Source: a virus
Length of the DNA: 23,481 nt
UHGV virus genome: UHGV-0138297
Reading direction: 5' to 3' (one strand)
Part shown: one piece after another, positions 1 to 5,298 of the stretch
How positions within the stretch are numbered: position 1 is the first letter of the stretch
Layout: every line of letters starts with the position of its first letter
The notes under the pieces: generated by a model
The model's input: only the letters and a program-made list of their open reading frames with translations
What the model was told of the DNA's origin: nothing
The model's database searches: none
Program-made: the position numbers and the translations under genes

Positions 1-193
1 CATAGTGAAAAGTTGCGAAGGCATCGATACGATCACATTGGCTGTAATGTCTGTCATTTAATTTGCTCCAGATACAAGGAATCGCCGCAGCATGGCTACG
101 GTGAGTATTTGTTTGCTTTTTGCACTACACTTTTTGTGTAGTGCTATCTCTCAAGGCCATAGCCGCTGAGTAGCTACGGTGAATTTTGGGCAT

Positions 194-216
194 AAAAAAA
201 CCCAGCCGAAGCTGGG
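194..216 (-). terminator. Rho-independent terminator (second of a tandem pair downstream of the P63C gene)
   Basis: Plus strand has A-run 194-200, then stem cccagc (201-206), loop cgaa, stem gctggg (211-216). Read on the minus strand this is a GC hairpin followed by a U7 tract. Confidence 0.6.
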
Positions 217-266
217 TCGTTGCGTTGGTTATCTGTCAGTAGTTATGTACTGGCTGAAGGATTTGT

Positions 267-289
267 ACAAAAACCCACCTGACGGTGGG
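267..289 (-). terminator. Rho-independent terminator immediately 3' of the P63C gene
   Basis: Plus strand acaaaaa (267-273), stem cccacc (274-279), loop tgac, stem ggtggg (284-289). On the minus strand the hairpin is followed by UUUUUGU. It lies 9 nt past the stop at 298. Confidence 0.65.
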
Positions 290-297
290 TTTCATAA

Positions 298-1266
298 TTA
301 GATTTCTGGTTTCATTCTTCCAAAAACCTTTTCTATTCCTTTTTCGTATTCTTCTCTTGTCTCACTCATCGCTGCGACCCCAAGAAGCTTACCGATATGC
401 TGACGCAAAGCCTTGACACCAATTTCAGAAAGGAACAGATGCAACTTATCAGATTGTTTTCCGTTCTCGTCTCGGCTGGCTCGAATCTGTTCAAGGATTT
501 TACCTTTACTCTTTGCTAGCGGGGTGTATATCTGCATGTTGGTTAGCTGCCCAAAACGAATAGGCCGTCCTTTCTCTGGCCTATTCAGGCCGTACAGTCG
601 ATACCACTCCTCGTATAGCTCATCTGGAAATTCCTTTTCATATTGACGAGCTTCTTCACGAACAAACGCTTTGAACTCGTCAATGACAGCCTGAACTTCT
701 GGACGATAACCAGCAAGCGCATACGCAACCCCCTTAATTCCCGCCTTAGCGGAGGCATTAATAAGTCTCTGTGCTGCGGCGGCTGCCTTTAACCGTGATT
801 GTGGTAGATCGTCATTATCTTTGGCTTCTATTAGTGCCCTACCAATATCAACAATTGCTGTAATGTCATAACCTAACGCTTGATGAACGGTTTTAGACTT
901 CGAAGTAAGTTGAAATTTATAGGGATTTTCCATTTTTCGCTGCAATTCTAGATCTCGGTATTTGCTCATATACTGAGCGCCAAGTAGTTGATCTAAATCC
1001 CTGGCATGTTCACCAATCCCTAGCAACTGAGATAATCCAGTTTTCGTAACAACGACAGTTTTCGACTCGTCATCCAGTACATAACATTCAGCATCAATGC
1101 CAAAATCATCTAAAAAGTTACCACGATGAGTTGCCCTGAGAATCTTACTTTTCCATCTTGCAGCAGCTGCTTTCTTTGCTATTTCAGAACGCTGCTCTTT
1201 AGTCAGCGACTTTGCGCGAGCGATCCCGCCCTTAGCTTTCCCTTCACTACTTTTCTTTTCTGTCAT
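298..1266 (-). CDS. P63C-domain phage protein (function unknown) with a basic N-terminal segment; accessory (moron) gene
   Basis: 322-aa ORF. SD AAGGTG lies 8 nt upstream of the ATG at 1266. The N-terminal 45 residues are Lys/Arg/Ala-rich (KAKGGIARAKSLTKEQRSEIAKKAAAARWKSK). The P63C family assignment is from memory of prophage annotations, not from a search. The gene has its own promoter and terminators. Confidence 0.75.
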   Translation of the reverse strand: MTEKKSSEGKAKGGIARAKSLTKEQRSEIAKKAAAARWKSKILRATHRGNFLDDFGIDAECYVLDDESKTVVVTKTGLSQLLGIGEHARDLDQLLGAQYMSKYRDLELQRKMENPYKFQLTSKSKTVHQALGYDITAIVDIGRALIEAKDNDDLPQSRLKAAAAAQRLINASAKAGIKGVAYALAGYRPEVQAVIDEFKAFVREEARQYEKEFPDELYEEWYRLYGLNRPEKGRPIRFGQLTNMQIYTPLAKSKGKILEQIRASRDENGKQSDKLHLFLSEIGVKALRQHIGKLLGVAAMSETREEYEKGIEKVFGRMKPEI

Positions 1267-1267
1267 A

Positions 1268-1356
1268 ATGCAAGCACCTTGTTGTGATATATGCTTGCAT
1301 TATATACACTGTACACACATACAAGCAAGCATAAAACCAAAACAAAATGCTTGCAT
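1268..1356. promoter_or_regulatory. Divergent control region: two copies of a ~33-bp palindrome (ATGCAAGCA-N13/14-TGCTTGCAT) overlapping a predicted sigma70 promoter for the P63C gene
   Basis: Palindrome 1 has arms at 1268-1277 and 1291-1300; palindrome 2 at 1323-1332 and 1347-1356 (one mismatch each). On the minus strand a perfect -10 TATAAT (plus 1299-1304) sits 18 nt from -35 TTGCTT (plus 1323-1328). The -10 overlaps the right arm of palindrome 1 and the -35 overlaps the left arm of palindrome 2. Confidence 0.55.
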
Positions 1357-1421
1357 TACAACCGCGCTACTCCAACTACACATTATCATCTGGTATCCTG
1401 CACAAAACTAAGGAGGTTGGT

Positions 1422-1750
1422 GTGCTTGAATGGTTTCTGTTGGCTGCATTAGTCGTTTCTGGTTTGGTGTATGAGTATCGAATGCACTCTCTAACAAAAA
1501 AATAGGAATTCTAGAAAACGAATATTGTGCTCTCAAATCCTCACTGGAACGTGAGCAAGGGGACTTAAAAATCTCTCTGTCTAGCATTGAGCGTTCTATA
1601 GAGAGCTTAGAGGATAAGGTTGATCGTATAAAGAATGAGGATATTCATGATATTAAGGACGACATATCCTTCTTAAAATCTTGGTTGAAAAATGTTGGGA
1701 AAATTGCCACATCAACACGAGATAAGCTCAATCCATCCATGGATGACTAA
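1422..1750 (+). pseudogene. Small membrane-anchored coiled-coil protein gene, split by a -1 frame change at an A7 tract (pseudogene, or programmed frameshift/slippage)
   Basis: Strong SD AGGAGG (1411-1416) 5 nt before GTG 1422. Frame 0 encodes a 27-codon hydrophobic peptide (VLEWFLLAALVVSGLVYEYRMHSLTKK) ending at TAG 1503-1505. The -1 frame is open from 1475 to TAA 1748-1750 (about 83 codons, heptad-like, charged) and has no plausible in-frame start. The frames meet at A AAA AAA (1496-1502). The region is AT-rich. Confidence 0.55.
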
Positions 1751-3910
1751 TTACTCCTGTGCCATTCCGCTTAGCGATGCCACAATTCCAGCTCTTGCTA
1801 AACGCTGGAACTCTTCGTTTCCTAGTGCCTCGCGTATTGCTTTTACGGCGGCCTTATTTGCCATAAATCTGCGTTCCGCTGCCGCTAATGCTTCTTTGCT
1901 TCCGCCTGCTCTTACTGCTTTAGTGGCTTCCTGAACTGCTTTCTCTATCGCATACCGACCACTACGTGTGGTGGCAATTTTAGATACAGCGCCTTTTAAC
2001 CCAGCGCCAACTAAAGCACCTGCGGCAGCGCCTGCAATGCCTCCTCCAGCGCCACCAACAATGGCACCTGATGTTGAGTTGGCAATTGCATTTAACACTG
2101 TTGATGTGACGTTGGATAAACCAGCATCCAGATCGCGTAGTACATTGGCAGTTCTCCCTGTTCTTTCAATATACTGCTGAGGTTTCACTGCTGCTCTTGC
2201 AAGAGTGCCATACGCATCAGCAATTCTTCCAAGCTCTGAGGAATATCTGCTAATGGCTTTTACATTTTGTGGAGTGAGTATCTCTGCGATATGGTTAATT
2301 CCTGCTGCATCAGCTTTGCCACCACGTACACCATGCGAGATGGCATCCTGCAACATTGATGATATAGCAGGAACACGCTCTGATTCTGGCAGCGCGCGGA
2401 TCATAGAATGGAATCCAGCAGGACCATTAAGACCTTTAGCTGACGATGATTGAAGGGATTTTACTCCATTCGTAATCAGTGCATCTGTTGCCAAATCACG
2501 CCCGAAAACAGACTCTGCACTCTCTTGTGCTGATAACCTCGCTTTAGACAGATCATTAGCTTTTTGCCAGTCATCAAGAAATCCGCCGTTTTCCGCCATT
2601 GTGCGCATATCATCAGTAATTGCCCGGCGTATTTCCCCTGCTCTCCTTGCCGCATTTGCCTCTCCGCTACGCTTATATTTTTGCTCCGCATCAGCAAATT
2701 TCGCTCTCCATGCTTTCATGCCATCAAATGTTACTCCACCTTGATTGTTTGCCTGAACAAACTGTTTCATTTCAGGAGTAAGCGGTATGCCGGCAGATCG
2801 CTCTGCCTGAATAACGGCATTACCATTTAGCATTCTTGCTTTTTGATTTGGCATTGTTGACCGTACGTCATCCCATGCCGCGCGCTCGGCATCCTTCATC
2901 TGATCAAGATTTTGAAGAATCCTTTGTTTTATAGCCGCACTTTTTTCTGATGCCGTTCCAGATGCGGCCCCAAATTCATCAAGGTTTCGACTTAACTTTG
3001 ATGATATTTCGTTAAATGCTGCCTGATGGGCGTCCTGAACAATTCCTGGTGTTGATGCCAATGCGCCTTCGGCTTGTGCAATTCCACGACTTCCAGATCG
3101 CATTCCTGGTGTTAATGCGTTTATATCAATTCCAGCAGACTCAGCCGCTTTTGCTACATCTTCGGACACATTAGCGGCCTGACTGGCAATTGACTGACGC
3201 CCAGCACCTGACTTTGCCATCCTGGAAACATCATTAGCAGAATTCAGTGCTGCACCACCAAGAGCCTGTGAAACCCTTGGCGCAATAACGCGCCCGACAC
3301 CTGAAAGAACGCCTTGAGCACCAATATTGATACCACCGTTAATGGCAGCATTTTGTGCAAAGTCGCCCTCCTGATTTGCAGCATCAGCAAGAGAACCTGC
3401 AATCATGTTTCCTGCGGAACCGATATCTCCAGCGAGCTTTGCTGTCGCTCCAGCAGCTTTTGCCGCTGTGCCAATTGGCAGGAGATACCCACCAAATGTT
3501 TCACCGGCTTGCGCCCAACGGTCTGTCGGTCGATCGACAGGGCGATAAACATCATCCAAAACCTTGGGGCCACCAAGCCCATGGCTGATTGCATTAATCA
3601 GACTTGCGCCACCCTGCAATACGTCAAATGGTATGTTTACCAGACCACGACCAGCCTGTTCTGCAATTTGCCCTGCACTTTGACCACCTGTGAGCCAATC
3701 GCCAGCTTGTTGCATCAATGATGGTTCTTCTTTCTGCTGCTGATGCGGAGGGTATGCTGCATAAAACTGATCTCTTGCTTCAGCCCATTTGTCACCAGCC
3801 TTAGGGGCAACAACCTCATCAAAATATTGCGCTTGAGCCTGTGCTTTCTGTTCTTCAGTTAACGCCTGATACTGTGGAGAGGCGATAACATCTTTCCATG
3901 CTTTAGCCAT
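1751..3910 (-). CDS. Ejection (DNA-transfer) protein, P22 gp16-like
   Basis: 719-aa ORF in the P22 gene order 14-7-20-16, last of the ejection-protein trio. It has Gly/Ala-rich tracts. Its start overlaps the gp20-like stop. Confidence 0.85.
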
Positions 3911-5298
3911 TAATCACCCCATAGTGAAGAAAAGTTACTGCTGGCTGCTGGCTGTGATACCTGTGCAGGTTGAGATTGCTGCCGCTGAGATTTACCAACA
4001 TTAACGTTATATTGTTGGTTGTAATTGTTGGTGTATTCCTGAATCTCACGAATCGACTGCTGCATAGCCTCCGGGCTTGAATAGTCAACCTGCGGCATCC
4101 CCTGAAAATACATCTTCGCTTCTGCAACGGTGTTAATACCACTGGCACCCATGTCCCTTGCTGCCGCCACACCCTGTTTCTGCATTCTGCCCTGAATACG
4201 TTGTGCTGAGTTATATAACTGGCGCTGCTCTTTTCCCGTTAATCGGCTGCGAACATCAGCACCAATTGCTGGATTACCTGCACCGCCTGTCATTCCTGTC
4301 ATGAAATCGAGAGCAGAAGCGTCTGCATTTGCGATCGCGTCGATATCCTTCTTCATGGCATAGTTTTGTGCTGATGCAGACGATGTTGCCGGCGCAGCGA
4401 TTGAACTGGCAGGAACGCGAACCATATTCCCCTCGTTGTCGATGCCTTCGTAGAACGCATTAGCCCCAGCGCCGTGAAGTTTCCCTCCTACCGTTACAGT
4501 TCTGCCATCTGATAACTGAACTGTACGCTCATCATTCCCAGCGGTTCCTCTTGTTGACGCTCGCTGCATTGCCAAATCCTGCCCGCGTCGCGCAGTAGAA
4601 GCAGATAAGTCCTGACCGCGCATCGTGATGTTCTGACCTCGTGCTGTTAGCGCCTCTCCAGCCTGATTGCTGCGGATTGTCTCTGCCAGCCTGCCTCGGT
4701 CAATTTCACGACCAGCCATCTTGTCCTGAACATTGAAGTAATCAATCGGACCAAGAGCAGCCATCCCAAGGTGATCAACAAACTCACCAAATCCTGAAGG
4801 ATTCTGCTGATACATCTGAGCAACGCTGTTAGGGTCAACACCGACGCGAGTCAGTTCCTTGGCGTTGTTTTGCAGCCATGATTGCATTGCTTCTGGAGAC
4901 GATGACGCAAGGCGTGCGCCAGCCGCTAAGGTGCCGATAGAATTACGCTGGTCTTCATCAATGAATCCCATGCCTTTACGAACGGATTCAATCTGGTCTG
5001 GATATTGAGTAGCCAACTGACGCAAAGCACCGCGATCACCAGACGCATAAGCATTAGCGTACGCCTGCTGAAATTCTTTCTGCCGCTGAGCCTGCTTCTC
5101 CTGCTGAAACACCCCCGCAATACCTGAAAGGCCTTGCAAAGCAGTCAGCCCAACATTGTTAGCGCCTGAACGCTCAATATCATTGTTCTGCCTGATAAGC
5201 TGAAGCGTATTGCCGATGTCATTTACGCTCGGAGCGTTTGAGTTGACGCCGCCGATACCAGCCAACAATCCGCCATTTGATCCTTGCCAAGTAGCCAT
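3910..5298 (-). CDS. Ejection protein, P22 gp20-like
   Basis: 462 aa (P22 gp20 is about 471 aa). Position between the gp7-like and gp16-like genes. Gln/Ala-rich low-complexity sequence typical of ejection proteins. Confidence 0.85.

What the first reader, a model, noticed from the sequence alone, without database searches (positions are those of the whole stretch)
1268..1356. Two copies of a 33-bp palindrome overlapping the -10 and -35 of a near-consensus promoter
ATGCAAGCA-N13/14-TGCTTGCAT occurs twice, with centres about 56 bp apart, between the divergent P63C and small-membrane-protein genes. A perfect TATAAT with an 18-nt spacer to TTGCTT reads toward the P63C gene, and both hexamers are covered by palindrome arms. 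This is the architecture of a repressor-controlled operator pair. The arms do not match the LexA box or the P22 Arc/Mnt operators as I recall them, so the regulator is unknown; the basic N-terminus of the P63C protein makes autoregulation one possibility. The first palindrome could alternatively fold in the mRNA, placing the SD in the loop next to the start codon.
Basis: seen in the sequence. Interest (0 to 1): 0.58.

Follow-up and report, generated by a model that had tools for sequence, protein, structure and literature searches.

The report
Conserved operator pair of P63C gene
Two palindromes sit on the promoter and start codon of a prophage gene of unknown function, and the same sites recur across bacterial phyla wherever a gene encodes one short basic N-terminal segment, so they are most likely that protein's own repressor-binding sites.

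Summary
Window 1268-1300 is ATGCAAGCA-N15-TGCTTGCAT, a perfect palindrome. Window 1323-1356 is the same motif with an N16 spacer and one mismatch. The centres are 55.5 bp apart, and no shuffle of the window gives either match. The distal palindrome holds the -35 (TTGCTT). The proximal one abuts the -10 (TATAAT), carries the Shine-Dalgarno in its spacer and ends at the ATG of the P63C gene.

Among 80 homologous loci retrieved by protein alone, from at least seven phyla, about 54 have the same double palindrome. The 7-bp core is invariant. Deviations are one-sided (81) rather than compensatory (5). The gap between palindromes is fixed at 21-22 bp, which gives a 17-18 bp promoter spacer.

The sites track a ~30-residue N-terminal motif (GGxARA..L....R..IA..AA..RW). 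They occur before RhuM-family genes that carry the motif (5/5). They are absent before P63C or RhuM homologues that lack it (0/6).

Best reading: an autogenously repressed promoter whose operators are bound by the motif-bearing product. Binding is inferred, not shown.

I found no description of this in the literature searched. I rate it a new member of a known kind. The cassette also travels as cargo of IS1-family elements.

The parts
1268..1300 (-). Proximal operator palindrome (O-prox): ATGCAAGCA-N15-TGCTTGCAT. The perfect 12-bp arms are 1265-1276 and 1292-1303.
   Evidence: 0 mismatches; 0 of 100 shuffles. The equivalent element ends at the start codon in about 54 of 80 protein-retrieved loci.
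1323..1356 (-). Distal operator palindrome (O-dist): on the minus strand ATGCAAGCA-N16-TGCTTGCtT, matching 17 of 18 arm positions.
   Evidence: A distal copy with its centre 53-57 bp upstream of the proximal one is present in 49 of 51 non-redundant loci.
1323..1328 (-). -35 hexamer TTGCTT, inside the promoter-proximal arm of O-dist.
   Evidence: Read from the sequence. In homologues the same arm supplies TTGCAT, and the gap to O-prox is 21-22 bp in 41 of 51 loci, giving a 17-18 bp spacer.
1299..1304 (-). -10 hexamer TATAAT. Its last two bases are the first two of the O-prox arm.
   Evidence: The flank of O-prox in homologues reads T(39/51) A(42/51) n n A T, i.e. TAnnAT.
1290..1294 (-). Predicted transcription start, about 7 nt downstream of the -10, at the end of the upstream arm of O-prox.
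   Evidence: Inference from promoter geometry; not mapped. The leader from 1293 down is unstructured.
1275..1280 (-). Shine-Dalgarno AAGGTG at the 3' end of the O-prox spacer.
   Evidence: Homologues have aGGa at the same place.
1264..1266 (-). ATG start codon of the P63C gene, 1 nt after the O-prox arm.
   Evidence: In most non-enterobacterial homologues the arm's final AT plus a G forms the start codon (TGCTTGCATG).
298..1266 (-). P63C-domain protein gene (322 aa), function unknown.
1153..1239 (-). Codons 10-38: the N-terminal basic motif GKAKGGIARAKSLTKEQRSEIAKKAAAARW, the putative operator-binding module.
   Evidence: Invariant G13 G14 A16 R17 A30 R37 W38 in 54 homologues. The same motif is found on RhuM-family proteins and on small tail proteins. 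Its presence tracks the palindromes.
269..292 (-). Intrinsic terminator hairpin (AAACCCACC-GTCA-GGTGGGTTT plus a T run), starting 6 nt after the stop codon.
   Evidence: The homologous HK620 sequence is annotated as terminator tMNT.

Best explanation
The two palindromes are a pair of operators that control the sigma-70 promoter of the P63C gene. Each consists of two inverted half-sites with the core TGCAAGCA.

Layout. The distal operator contains the -35. The proximal operator begins inside the -10, covers the transcription start and carries the Shine-Dalgarno in its spacer. It ends at the ATG. A protein bound to the four half-sites would exclude RNA polymerase.

Binder. The most likely binder is the gene's own product, through its conserved ~30-residue N-terminal segment (GGxARA-x2-L-x4-R-x2-IA-x2-AA-x2-RW). 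The gene would then be autogenously repressed and held at a low, steady level in the lysogen, independently of the phage's late transcription.

Module. Promoter and operators, gene and terminator together (about 292-1387) form a self-contained moron inserted in the immI/sieA region of a P22-like prophage.

Shown: the sites, their geometry, their conservation, and their co-occurrence with the motif. Inferred: that a protein binds them, that it is the P63C protein, and that the effect is repression.
For: (1) Beyond chance in the window: 0 of 100 shuffles give either palindrome.

(2) Unbiased comparison. Eighty loci were found by protein similarity only. They come from Proteobacteria, Acidobacteriota, Myxococcota, Verrucomicrobiota, Firmicutes, Chloroflexi and Abditibacteriaceae, at 41-76% identity. 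About 54 carry the same two palindromes.
- In 51 non-redundant loci, core positions 3-9 are at least 94% conserved in each of the four arms (48-51 of 51), apart from the sixth base of the start-codon-side arm of the proximal palindrome (40 of 51).
- Of the exact core heptamers in these loci, 221 of 303 lie within 200 nt upstream of the gene. The rest are near the background expectation.

(3) Protein site, not helix: arm deviations are one-sided in 81 cases and compensated in 5.

(4) Promoter geometry is conserved. The gap between palindromes is 21-22 bp in 41 of 51 loci, while the internal spacers vary from 13 to 17 bp. TAnnAT abuts the proximal arm, and the SD sits at the 3' end of the proximal spacer.

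(5) Only the gene travels with the sites.
- Homology with HK620 stops at about 1388 and at the terminator.
- The window and the enterobacterial phage loci hold no IS1 transposase and no small tail protein.

(6) The sites track the motif, not the protein body.
- RhuM-family genes with the motif have the palindromes in 5 of 5 cases. RhuM genes without it have them in 0 of 3.
- P63C homologues without the motif (L184, L188, Javan484_0070) have none.

(7) Variant motifs go with variant sites. The Acidobacterial '...AAIQARW' proteins have TATACTTGC...GCAAGTATA. The 933W protein has a degenerate motif and ACGTGCA-N11-TGCACGT.

(8) Among near-identical relatives, substitutions and indels fall in the spacers and not in the arms.
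Against: No binding or expression data exist for any member of the family.

The motif is short. It matches no Pfam DNA-binding family and no solved structure. AlphaFold models it as two helices at low confidence, pLDDT 54-67.

The motif's codons lie within 120 nt of the sites. Co-occurrence could therefore partly reflect physical linkage of one 5' cassette rather than function.

Spacer length inside each palindrome varies from 13 to 17 bp, which is unusual for a rigid dimer on B-DNA.

The -35 is weak (3 of 6), and the consensus scan did not call the promoter. The start site is predicted, not mapped.

In many chromosomal loci, other candidate binders lie next to the sites: an IS1-family transposase with an HTH, and a small protein with the same motif.
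Confidence: 0.58

Rival explanations
1. The palindromes are operators, but the binder is another protein: a repressor encoded elsewhere in the prophage, or a host factor. In the IS1-borne copies it could be the small tail protein or the transposase. On this view the P63C protein does not bind its own promoter.
For: - An IS1-family transposase with an N-terminal HTH is divergently adjacent in 43 of 80 loci.
- About 32 loci encode a convergent 75-100 aa protein that carries the same motif at its C-terminus.
- Only 23.5 kb of the prophage is visible, so its immunity region could not be searched.
Against: - Neither the transposase nor the small protein is present in the window or in the enterobacterial phage loci, yet the sites are intact there.
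- The sites occur with the same core in hosts from at least seven phyla, which argues against any host-specific factor or one phage's repressor.
- The sites are lost exactly where the motif is lost.
Confidence: 0.2
2. The sites are chiefly the target of the protein's main activity rather than a transcriptional switch. One version is a self-recognition or self-immunity DNA element like aba of BstA, which titrates or silences the protein when the prophage or element replicates. Another is a recombination or replication site.
For: - BstA, a prophage defence protein, has a cognate DNA element that spans 29 bp upstream and the first 34 bp of its own gene (PMC8585504).
- The P63C homologue of ST104 sits at the bstA position, downstream of cI.
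- P63C homologues lie in lysogeny or moron positions in several phages.
- In Gordonia phage Petra, two half-sites lie inside the first ten codons.
Against: - aba elements are specific to each BstA variant. These sites are the same across the whole family, so they could not give exclusive self-immunity.
- The conserved features are those of a promoter: the 17-18 bp spacer, TAnnAT, and the SD placement.
- The P63C protein has no KilA-N-like domain in Pfam.
- This role could coexist with autoregulation.
Confidence: 0.12
3. The palindromes act as RNA. In read-through transcripts from the late operon, which has the same orientation, they fold and hide the SD and AUG. The gene would then be translated only from its own promoter. 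Alternatively they act as processing or termination signals.
For: - Minus-strand RNA 1365->1250 folds into a nested hairpin of -49 kcal/mol, z = -7.7. It pairs the SD and the bases up to the AUG.
- 20 of the 21 positions of the outer helix pair on the minus strand if G-U pairs are allowed, against 18 on the plus strand (my reading).
Against: - There is no covariation in 51 loci: 81 one-sided changes against 5 compensated.
- The arm sequence is invariant across phyla, which a helix does not require.
- The transcript from the gene's own predicted start lacks the upstream arm and is unstructured, z = 0.13.
- RhuM loci often keep the distal palindrome and only the upstream arm of the proximal one, so no SD hairpin can form.
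- No Rfam family matches; the only hits are sub-threshold generic hairpins.
- Most homologues are not inside a phage late operon.
Confidence: 0.07
4. Chance repeats or a neutral by-product of recombination, with no function.
For: Single 10-mers with one mismatch occur elsewhere in the window at the chance rate.
Against: - 0 of 100 shuffles give either palindrome.
- More than 120 viral contigs hold an exact match. My rough expectation for a collection of that size is about 10.
- The sites are conserved across phyla at a fixed position relative to the gene.
Confidence: 0.01

Closest known systems
Phage P22 immI region: Pant/Pmnt promoters controlled by the Mnt and Arc operators
   Same: It occupies the same place in a P22-like genome, between gene 16/sieA-hkcB and the tailspike gene. 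In phage 611R6 the P63C gene lies directly beside mnt-arc-ant. Both are small promoter-gene-terminator units with palindromic operators that overlap promoter hexamers, and in both the regulator is encoded at the locus.
   Different: The window has only remnants of mnt and ant. The half-site TGCAAGCA is unrelated to the Mnt and Arc operators as I recall them; I did not test that with a tool. Mnt and Arc are ribbon-helix-helix proteins that bind compact sites. Here the half-sites are 13-17 bp apart, and the putative binding segment has no recognised fold.
Autogenously repressed accessory modules, such as toxin-antitoxin operons, lambda cI at OR, and IS1 InsA at its terminal repeats
   Same: The product is inferred to bind palindromes across its own promoter. 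Multiple sites are spaced by a whole number of helical turns (about 55 bp). The module is mobile and self-contained.
   Different: The putative DNA-binding part is a ~30-residue N-terminal segment fused to a large body of unknown function (P63C or RhuM). It is not a separate antitoxin or a classical HTH or RHH domain. The operator core is conserved across phyla. The sites are not the IS1-type terminal repeats, which read GGTGGTGCATCAGTTTGAA.
BstA-aba prophage defence system (Owen et al. 2021, PMC8585504)
   Same: Both involve a prophage-borne, lysogeny-position gene with a short DNA element spanning the start of that same gene. The ST104 P63C homologue occupies the bstA slot downstream of cI.
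   Different: There is no detectable sequence relationship and no KilA-N-like domain. aba has terminal direct repeats and differs between BstA variants. These sites are inverted repeats, identical across the family, and arranged as a promoter. A defence function for P63C is untested, and PADLOC gives no hit.
RhuM family (Pfam PF13310, 'virulence protein RhuM')
   Same: A subfamily of RhuM proteins carries the same N-terminal motif. It has the same palindromes upstream and occurs in the same IS1-type cassette.
   Different: The protein body is different: RhuM plus a winged-helix region rather than P63C. The window's gene is not a RhuM member.

Membership tests
Operator-controlled sigma-70 promoter with autogenous repressor | Inverted-repeat sites present and more frequent than chance | tested here: met
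   (0 of 100 shuffles).
Operator-controlled sigma-70 promoter with autogenous repressor | Sites overlap the -35, -10 or start site of the regulated promoter | tested here: met
   Read from the sequence. The geometry is conserved in 51 loci. The promoter itself is predicted only, and its -35 matches at 3 of 6.
Operator-controlled sigma-70 promoter with autogenous repressor | Site sequence conserved in homologous loci while spacers and flanks diverge, without compensatory change | tested here: met
   (81 one-sided against 5 compensated deviations).
Operator-controlled sigma-70 promoter with autogenous repressor | The regulator is the product of the regulated gene (co-inheritance of site and binding module) | tested here: inconclusive
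   Sites are present with the motif on P63C and on RhuM (5/5). They are absent without it (0/3 P63C, 0/3 RhuM). Physical linkage of the motif codons and the sites is not excluded.
Operator-controlled sigma-70 promoter with autogenous repressor | Protein binds the sites and lowers transcription | not testable with these tools
   Needs EMSA or footprinting and reporter fusions.
P22 immI (Mnt/Arc operators) | mnt and arc genes present at the locus | tested here: not met
   The window at 1-290 aligns only to the ant and mnt remnants and terminators of HK620.
P22 immI (Mnt/Arc operators) | Operator sequence matches Omnt or Oarc | not tested
   Compared from memory only; no resemblance.
LexA/SOS box | TACTGT-N8-ACAGTA-like site in the promoter region | tested here: not met
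   No match with up to 3 mismatches in 1260-1360.
Cis-regulatory RNA structure | Base pairs maintained by compensatory changes | tested here: not met
Cis-regulatory RNA structure | Match to a described RNA family | tested here: not met
   Only sub-threshold generic hairpin hits: 29 bits against gathering scores of 56-140.
Cis-regulatory RNA structure | Both arms lie within the gene's transcript | tested here: inconclusive
   The predicted start at ~1292 excludes the upstream arm. Read-through RNA would contain both palindromes. The start site is not mapped.
BstA-aba self-immunity | BstA-type protein with a KilA-N-like domain | tested here: not met
BstA-aba self-immunity | DNA element at the gene start that is specific to each protein variant | tested here: not met
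   The position is similar, but the core is identical across the family. Compared with PMC8585504.
IS1-family terminal repeats or transposase sites | Resemblance to the element's terminal inverted repeats, with a transposase gene nearby | tested here: not met
   The terminal repeats read GGTGGTGCATCAGTTTGAA. There is no transposase in the window.

The most novel reading that the evidence does not exclude
The ~30-residue segment GGxARA..L....R..IA..AA..RW would be an undescribed, portable, sequence-specific DNA-binding module. Together with TGCAAGCA half-sites it would form a self-contained autoregulatory cassette that evolution has grafted onto unrelated bodies: P63C, RhuM, and the C-terminus of a small trans-acting protein. 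The cassette moves between phyla as a phage moron and as cargo of IS1-family insertion sequences. In the IS-borne form, the small tail protein and the large protein would compete for or share the same operators, as in a toxin-antitoxin or defence pair. The sites could also double as a self-recognition element.
Probability: 0.4. Interest if true: 0.75.

Novelty: new member of a known kind. Interest (0 to 1): 0.64.

Why it matters
P63C (PF10546) and RhuM (PF13310) are widespread families of unknown function, found in prophages, pathogenicity islands and insertion sequences.

A shared, deeply conserved control region gives a direct experimental handle on both. It supplies a defined 8-bp half-site, a defined 30-residue candidate binding segment, and a clear prediction of autorepression.

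It also shows that an operator can stay identical across phyla when regulator and site travel as a single cassette. It identifies IS1-family elements that carry these genes as cargo.

For the prophage itself, it marks the P63C gene as an independently controlled moron in the immI/sieA region. Lysogen-expressed exclusion genes are usually found in that region.

Tried and rejected
- **LexA box:** none in the region.
- **Known RNA family:** none.
- **RNA hairpin as the selected feature:** rejected for lack of covariation and because of the position of the predicted start.
- **Function of the P63C protein:**
  - No PADLOC or NCBIfam hit; the PHROG is of unknown function.
  - No PDB sequence hit.
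  - Literature searches for 'P63C', 'P63C domain' and 'Mx8 p63' found nothing functional.
- **The N-terminal motif:**
  - No PDB match.
  - The only Pfam hit is a sub-threshold match to the algal 'CSLinker' Rubisco-linker motif, which I take to be chance.
- **Retrieval of related loci:** the first attempt, with a 14-sequence alignment, failed because the alignment was too diverse. A 6-sequence alignment worked.
- **My strict regular expression for the motif:** it misclassified many true motif carriers. The motif-less set was therefore read by eye: L184, L188 and Javan484_0070.
- **IS1 transposase or small tail protein as the universal binder:** rejected for the window because both are absent there.
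- **Sigma-70 itself as the conserved 'reader' of TTGCAT-like half-sites:** considered and rejected. The core is conserved far beyond a -35, and two of the four arms face away from any promoter.

Full report
**1. What is in the window**

The window is the late region of a P22-like (Lederbergvirus) prophage, read on the minus strand.
- Gene 20 lies at 3910-5298 (Pfam Inj_translocase) and gene 16 at 1751-3910.
- An hkcB-like small membrane protein gene follows on the plus strand, starting at GTG 1422.
- The P63C-domain gene lies at 298-1266 on the minus strand.

The intergenic stretch holds two palindromes.
- The proximal one (1268-1300) is ATGCAAGCA-N15-TGCTTGCAT. Its perfect arms extend to 12 bp.
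- The distal one (1323-1356) reads ATGCAAGCA-N16-TGCTTGCtT on the gene's strand.
- Their centres are 55.5 bp apart.
- Neither palindrome appears in 100 shuffles of the window. The three exact copies of the 8-mer core in 23.5 kb are all here.

Otherwise the description holds.

**2. Anatomy on the gene's strand**

- The -35 is TTGCTT (1328->1323), inside the promoter-proximal arm of the distal palindrome.
- An 18-nt spacer follows.
- The -10 is TATAAT (1304->1299). Its last two bases begin the proximal palindrome.
- The predicted start is near 1292, at the end of that arm.
- The SD is AAGGTG, at the 3' end of the proximal spacer.
- The second arm fills the space between SD and AUG, and the ATG is at 1266.

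The -35 matches the consensus at only 3 of 6 positions, and the scan tool did not call the promoter. A terminator hairpin follows the stop codon by 6 nt and is annotated tMNT in HK620. Homology with HK620 ends at this terminator and at about 1388. So 292-1387 is a promoter-gene-terminator unit, a moron, that replaces hkcC.

**3. The palindrome is a family feature**

My rough expectation for a collection of that size is about 10. In most of these, the palindrome sits at the start codon of a 320-350 aa homologue of the window's protein.

To avoid selecting on the DNA, I retrieved 80 loci from reference genomes by protein similarity alone. They come from Proteobacteria, Acidobacteriota, Myxococcota, Verrucomicrobiota, Firmicutes, Chloroflexi and Abditibacteriaceae, at 41-76% identity. 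About 54 carry both palindromes.

In 51 non-redundant loci:
- Core positions 3-9 are at least 94% conserved in each of the four arms, apart from the sixth base of the start-codon-side arm of the proximal palindrome (40 of 51).
- Deviations are one-sided in 81 cases and compensated in 5.
- Internal spacers vary from 13 to 17 bp.
- The gap between the palindromes is 21-22 bp in 41 loci.
- The flank of the proximal arm reads TAnnAT.
- The 3' end of the proximal spacer reads aGGa.

This is the geometry of a promoter with a 17-18 bp spacer and a short leader. Exact core heptamers are concentrated within 200 nt upstream of the gene (221 of 303) and lie near background elsewhere. Sequence conservation without covariation points to a protein-read site, not an RNA helix.

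**4. Who binds**

In the window and the enterobacterial phage loci, nothing but the P63C gene travels with the sites. All homologues that have the sites share an N-terminal motif, GGxARA..L....R..IA..AA..RW.

*The motif occurs on a different protein body.* One viral contig (L059) has the motif and a palindrome in front of a RhuM-family body. I followed this up with a protein search. At least 41 of the best 120 RhuM clusters carry the motif. Others have a YdaS/Cro-like HTH, or nothing, at that position.
- All five motif-bearing RhuM genes that I fetched have ATGCAAGCA-N12-16-TGCTTGC upstream.
- None of three motif-less RhuM genes does.

*Motif-less P63C homologues lack the sites.* These are L184, L188 and Streptococcus phage Javan484_0070.

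*Variant motifs go with variant sites.*
- Acidobacterial '...AAIQARW' proteins have TATACTTGC...GCAAGTATA around a TTGACA promoter.
- Three loci have ATGCTTGACA...TGTCAAGCAT.
- Two loci have a short-spacer TGCTTGC-N3-GCAAGCA between the -35 and -10.
- The 933W homologue, whose motif is degenerate, has ACGTGCA-N11-TGCACGT.

The simplest reading is that the motif-bearing product binds its own operators.

*Caveats.*
- The motif is short and matches no known DNA-binding family or structure.
- It is modelled at low confidence.
- It is encoded within 120 nt of the sites, so linkage could contribute to the co-occurrence.
- Against pure linkage: the same motif also ends a small protein encoded about 1 kb away, on the other side of the gene.

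**5. RNA alternative**

A read-through minus-strand RNA that covers both palindromes folds to -49 kcal/mol (z = -7.7) and buries the SD and the bases up to the AUG. This could silence translation from late transcripts in this phage.

It is not what is conserved, for four reasons.
- There is no covariation.
- The gene's own predicted transcript lacks the upstream arm and is unstructured.
- RhuM loci often keep only three half-sites.
- No Rfam family matches.

**6. Context and comparison**

*Chromosomal context.* In 43 of 80 chromosomal loci, an IS1-family transposase is divergently adjacent. In about 32, a small motif-tailed protein is convergent downstream. Three copies in one genome define a 2.5-kb element with IS1-like terminal repeats. 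Two of the three copies have 8-bp target duplications. The same cassette also occurs with RhuM in place of P63C.

*Known phages.* Homologues sit in lysogeny or moron positions.
- ST104 orf23 lies downstream of cI, which is the bstA position, and has the canonical double palindrome.
- The 933W homologue lies beside roi.
- Gordonia phage Petra gp34 lies near the integrase.

*Closest known systems.* The closest by place and logic is P22 immI. The closest by the idea of a DNA element at the start of a prophage accessory gene is BstA-aba (PMC8585504). However, aba is variant-specific, while these sites are family-wide.

*Prior description.* I found no published description of the sites, the motif or the function of P63C.

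**7. Verdict**

The operator-pair interpretation, including autoregulation through the basic N-terminus, is supported by comparative evidence but remains untested biochemically. It is a new member of a known kind: an autogenously repressed promoter. The unusual points are a cross-phylum conserved operator, a very small putative binding module shared by unrelated proteins, and carriage by both phage morons and IS1-family elements.

Noticed in passing
window 1422-1750 (+), A-run 1496-1502: The hkcB-like gene is interrupted. The window has A7 where HK620 and phage 611R6 have A8. The frame starting at GTG 1422 therefore stops at 1503-1505 after 27 codons instead of running to about 109 aa. This could be a pseudogene, a sequencing error or a homopolymer switch.
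   Followed up: partly
L178, L179, L180 at 1477-3992; also L204 and 43 of the loci L123-L202: P63C genes, and in L204 a RhuM gene, are cargo of a ~2.5-kb IS1-family element. The element consists of a divergent DDE_Tnp_IS1 transposase, the palindromes, the P63C or RhuM gene, and a convergent small gene. Its terminal repeats read GGTGGTGCATCAGTTTGAA. Two of the three copies in one genome have 8-bp target duplications.
   Followed up: partly
e.g. L131 3452-3685 (-), L144 3015-3242 (-), L204 2637-2870 (-): Small proteins of 75-100 aa, encoded convergently downstream of P63C or RhuM, end with the same KGGxARA..L....R..IA..AA..RW motif. No TGCTTGC sites lie upstream of their own genes. They have no Pfam match.
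   Followed up: partly
P0121-P0240 (RhuM family): RhuM-family proteins come with interchangeable N-terminal extensions: the KGG..ARW motif, a YdaS/Cro-like HTH (MNAREIIEKFGGQSALA...), or none. Called proteins that begin '...DACM' or 'MLA...' are translated through the palindrome arm TGCTTGCATG, so those start codons are probably mis-set.
   Followed up: partly
L214 (ST104) 1417-2496; L211 (933W) 1417-2466; L212 (Petra) 926-1954; L213 (Javan484) 995-1888: P63C homologues occupy lysogeny or moron slots in known phages. In ST104 the gene is downstream of cI, where BTP1 has bstA. In 933W it lies between a DNA methylase gene and roi, with a different palindrome, ACGTGCATATTTAAATATTGCACGT. In Petra it lies near the integrase, with two half-sites inside the first ten codons. 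In Javan484 it lies downstream of the repressor gene and has neither motif nor sites.
   Followed up: partly
window 1250-1365 (-): In read-through RNA the four arms pair in a nested way (outer with outer, inner with inner), at -49 kcal/mol. The two spacers are partly complementary here. The distal spacer appears inverted relative to that of the Klebsiella locus L123, as if it had flipped between its own inverted arms.
   Followed up: partly
window 1-292: The left end of the window carries remnants of the P22 ant 3' end and the mnt-associated terminators, as in HK620. There are two terminator hairpins, at 199-218 and 269-292. The immI genes themselves are deleted here, although in phage 611R6 the same P63C gene sits next to intact mnt-arc-ant.
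   Followed up: partly
E. coli genome collection: The 241-bp control region is present at 80% coverage or more in 66 of 5,426 complete E. coli genomes. It is almost always chromosomal and single-copy.
   Followed up: no
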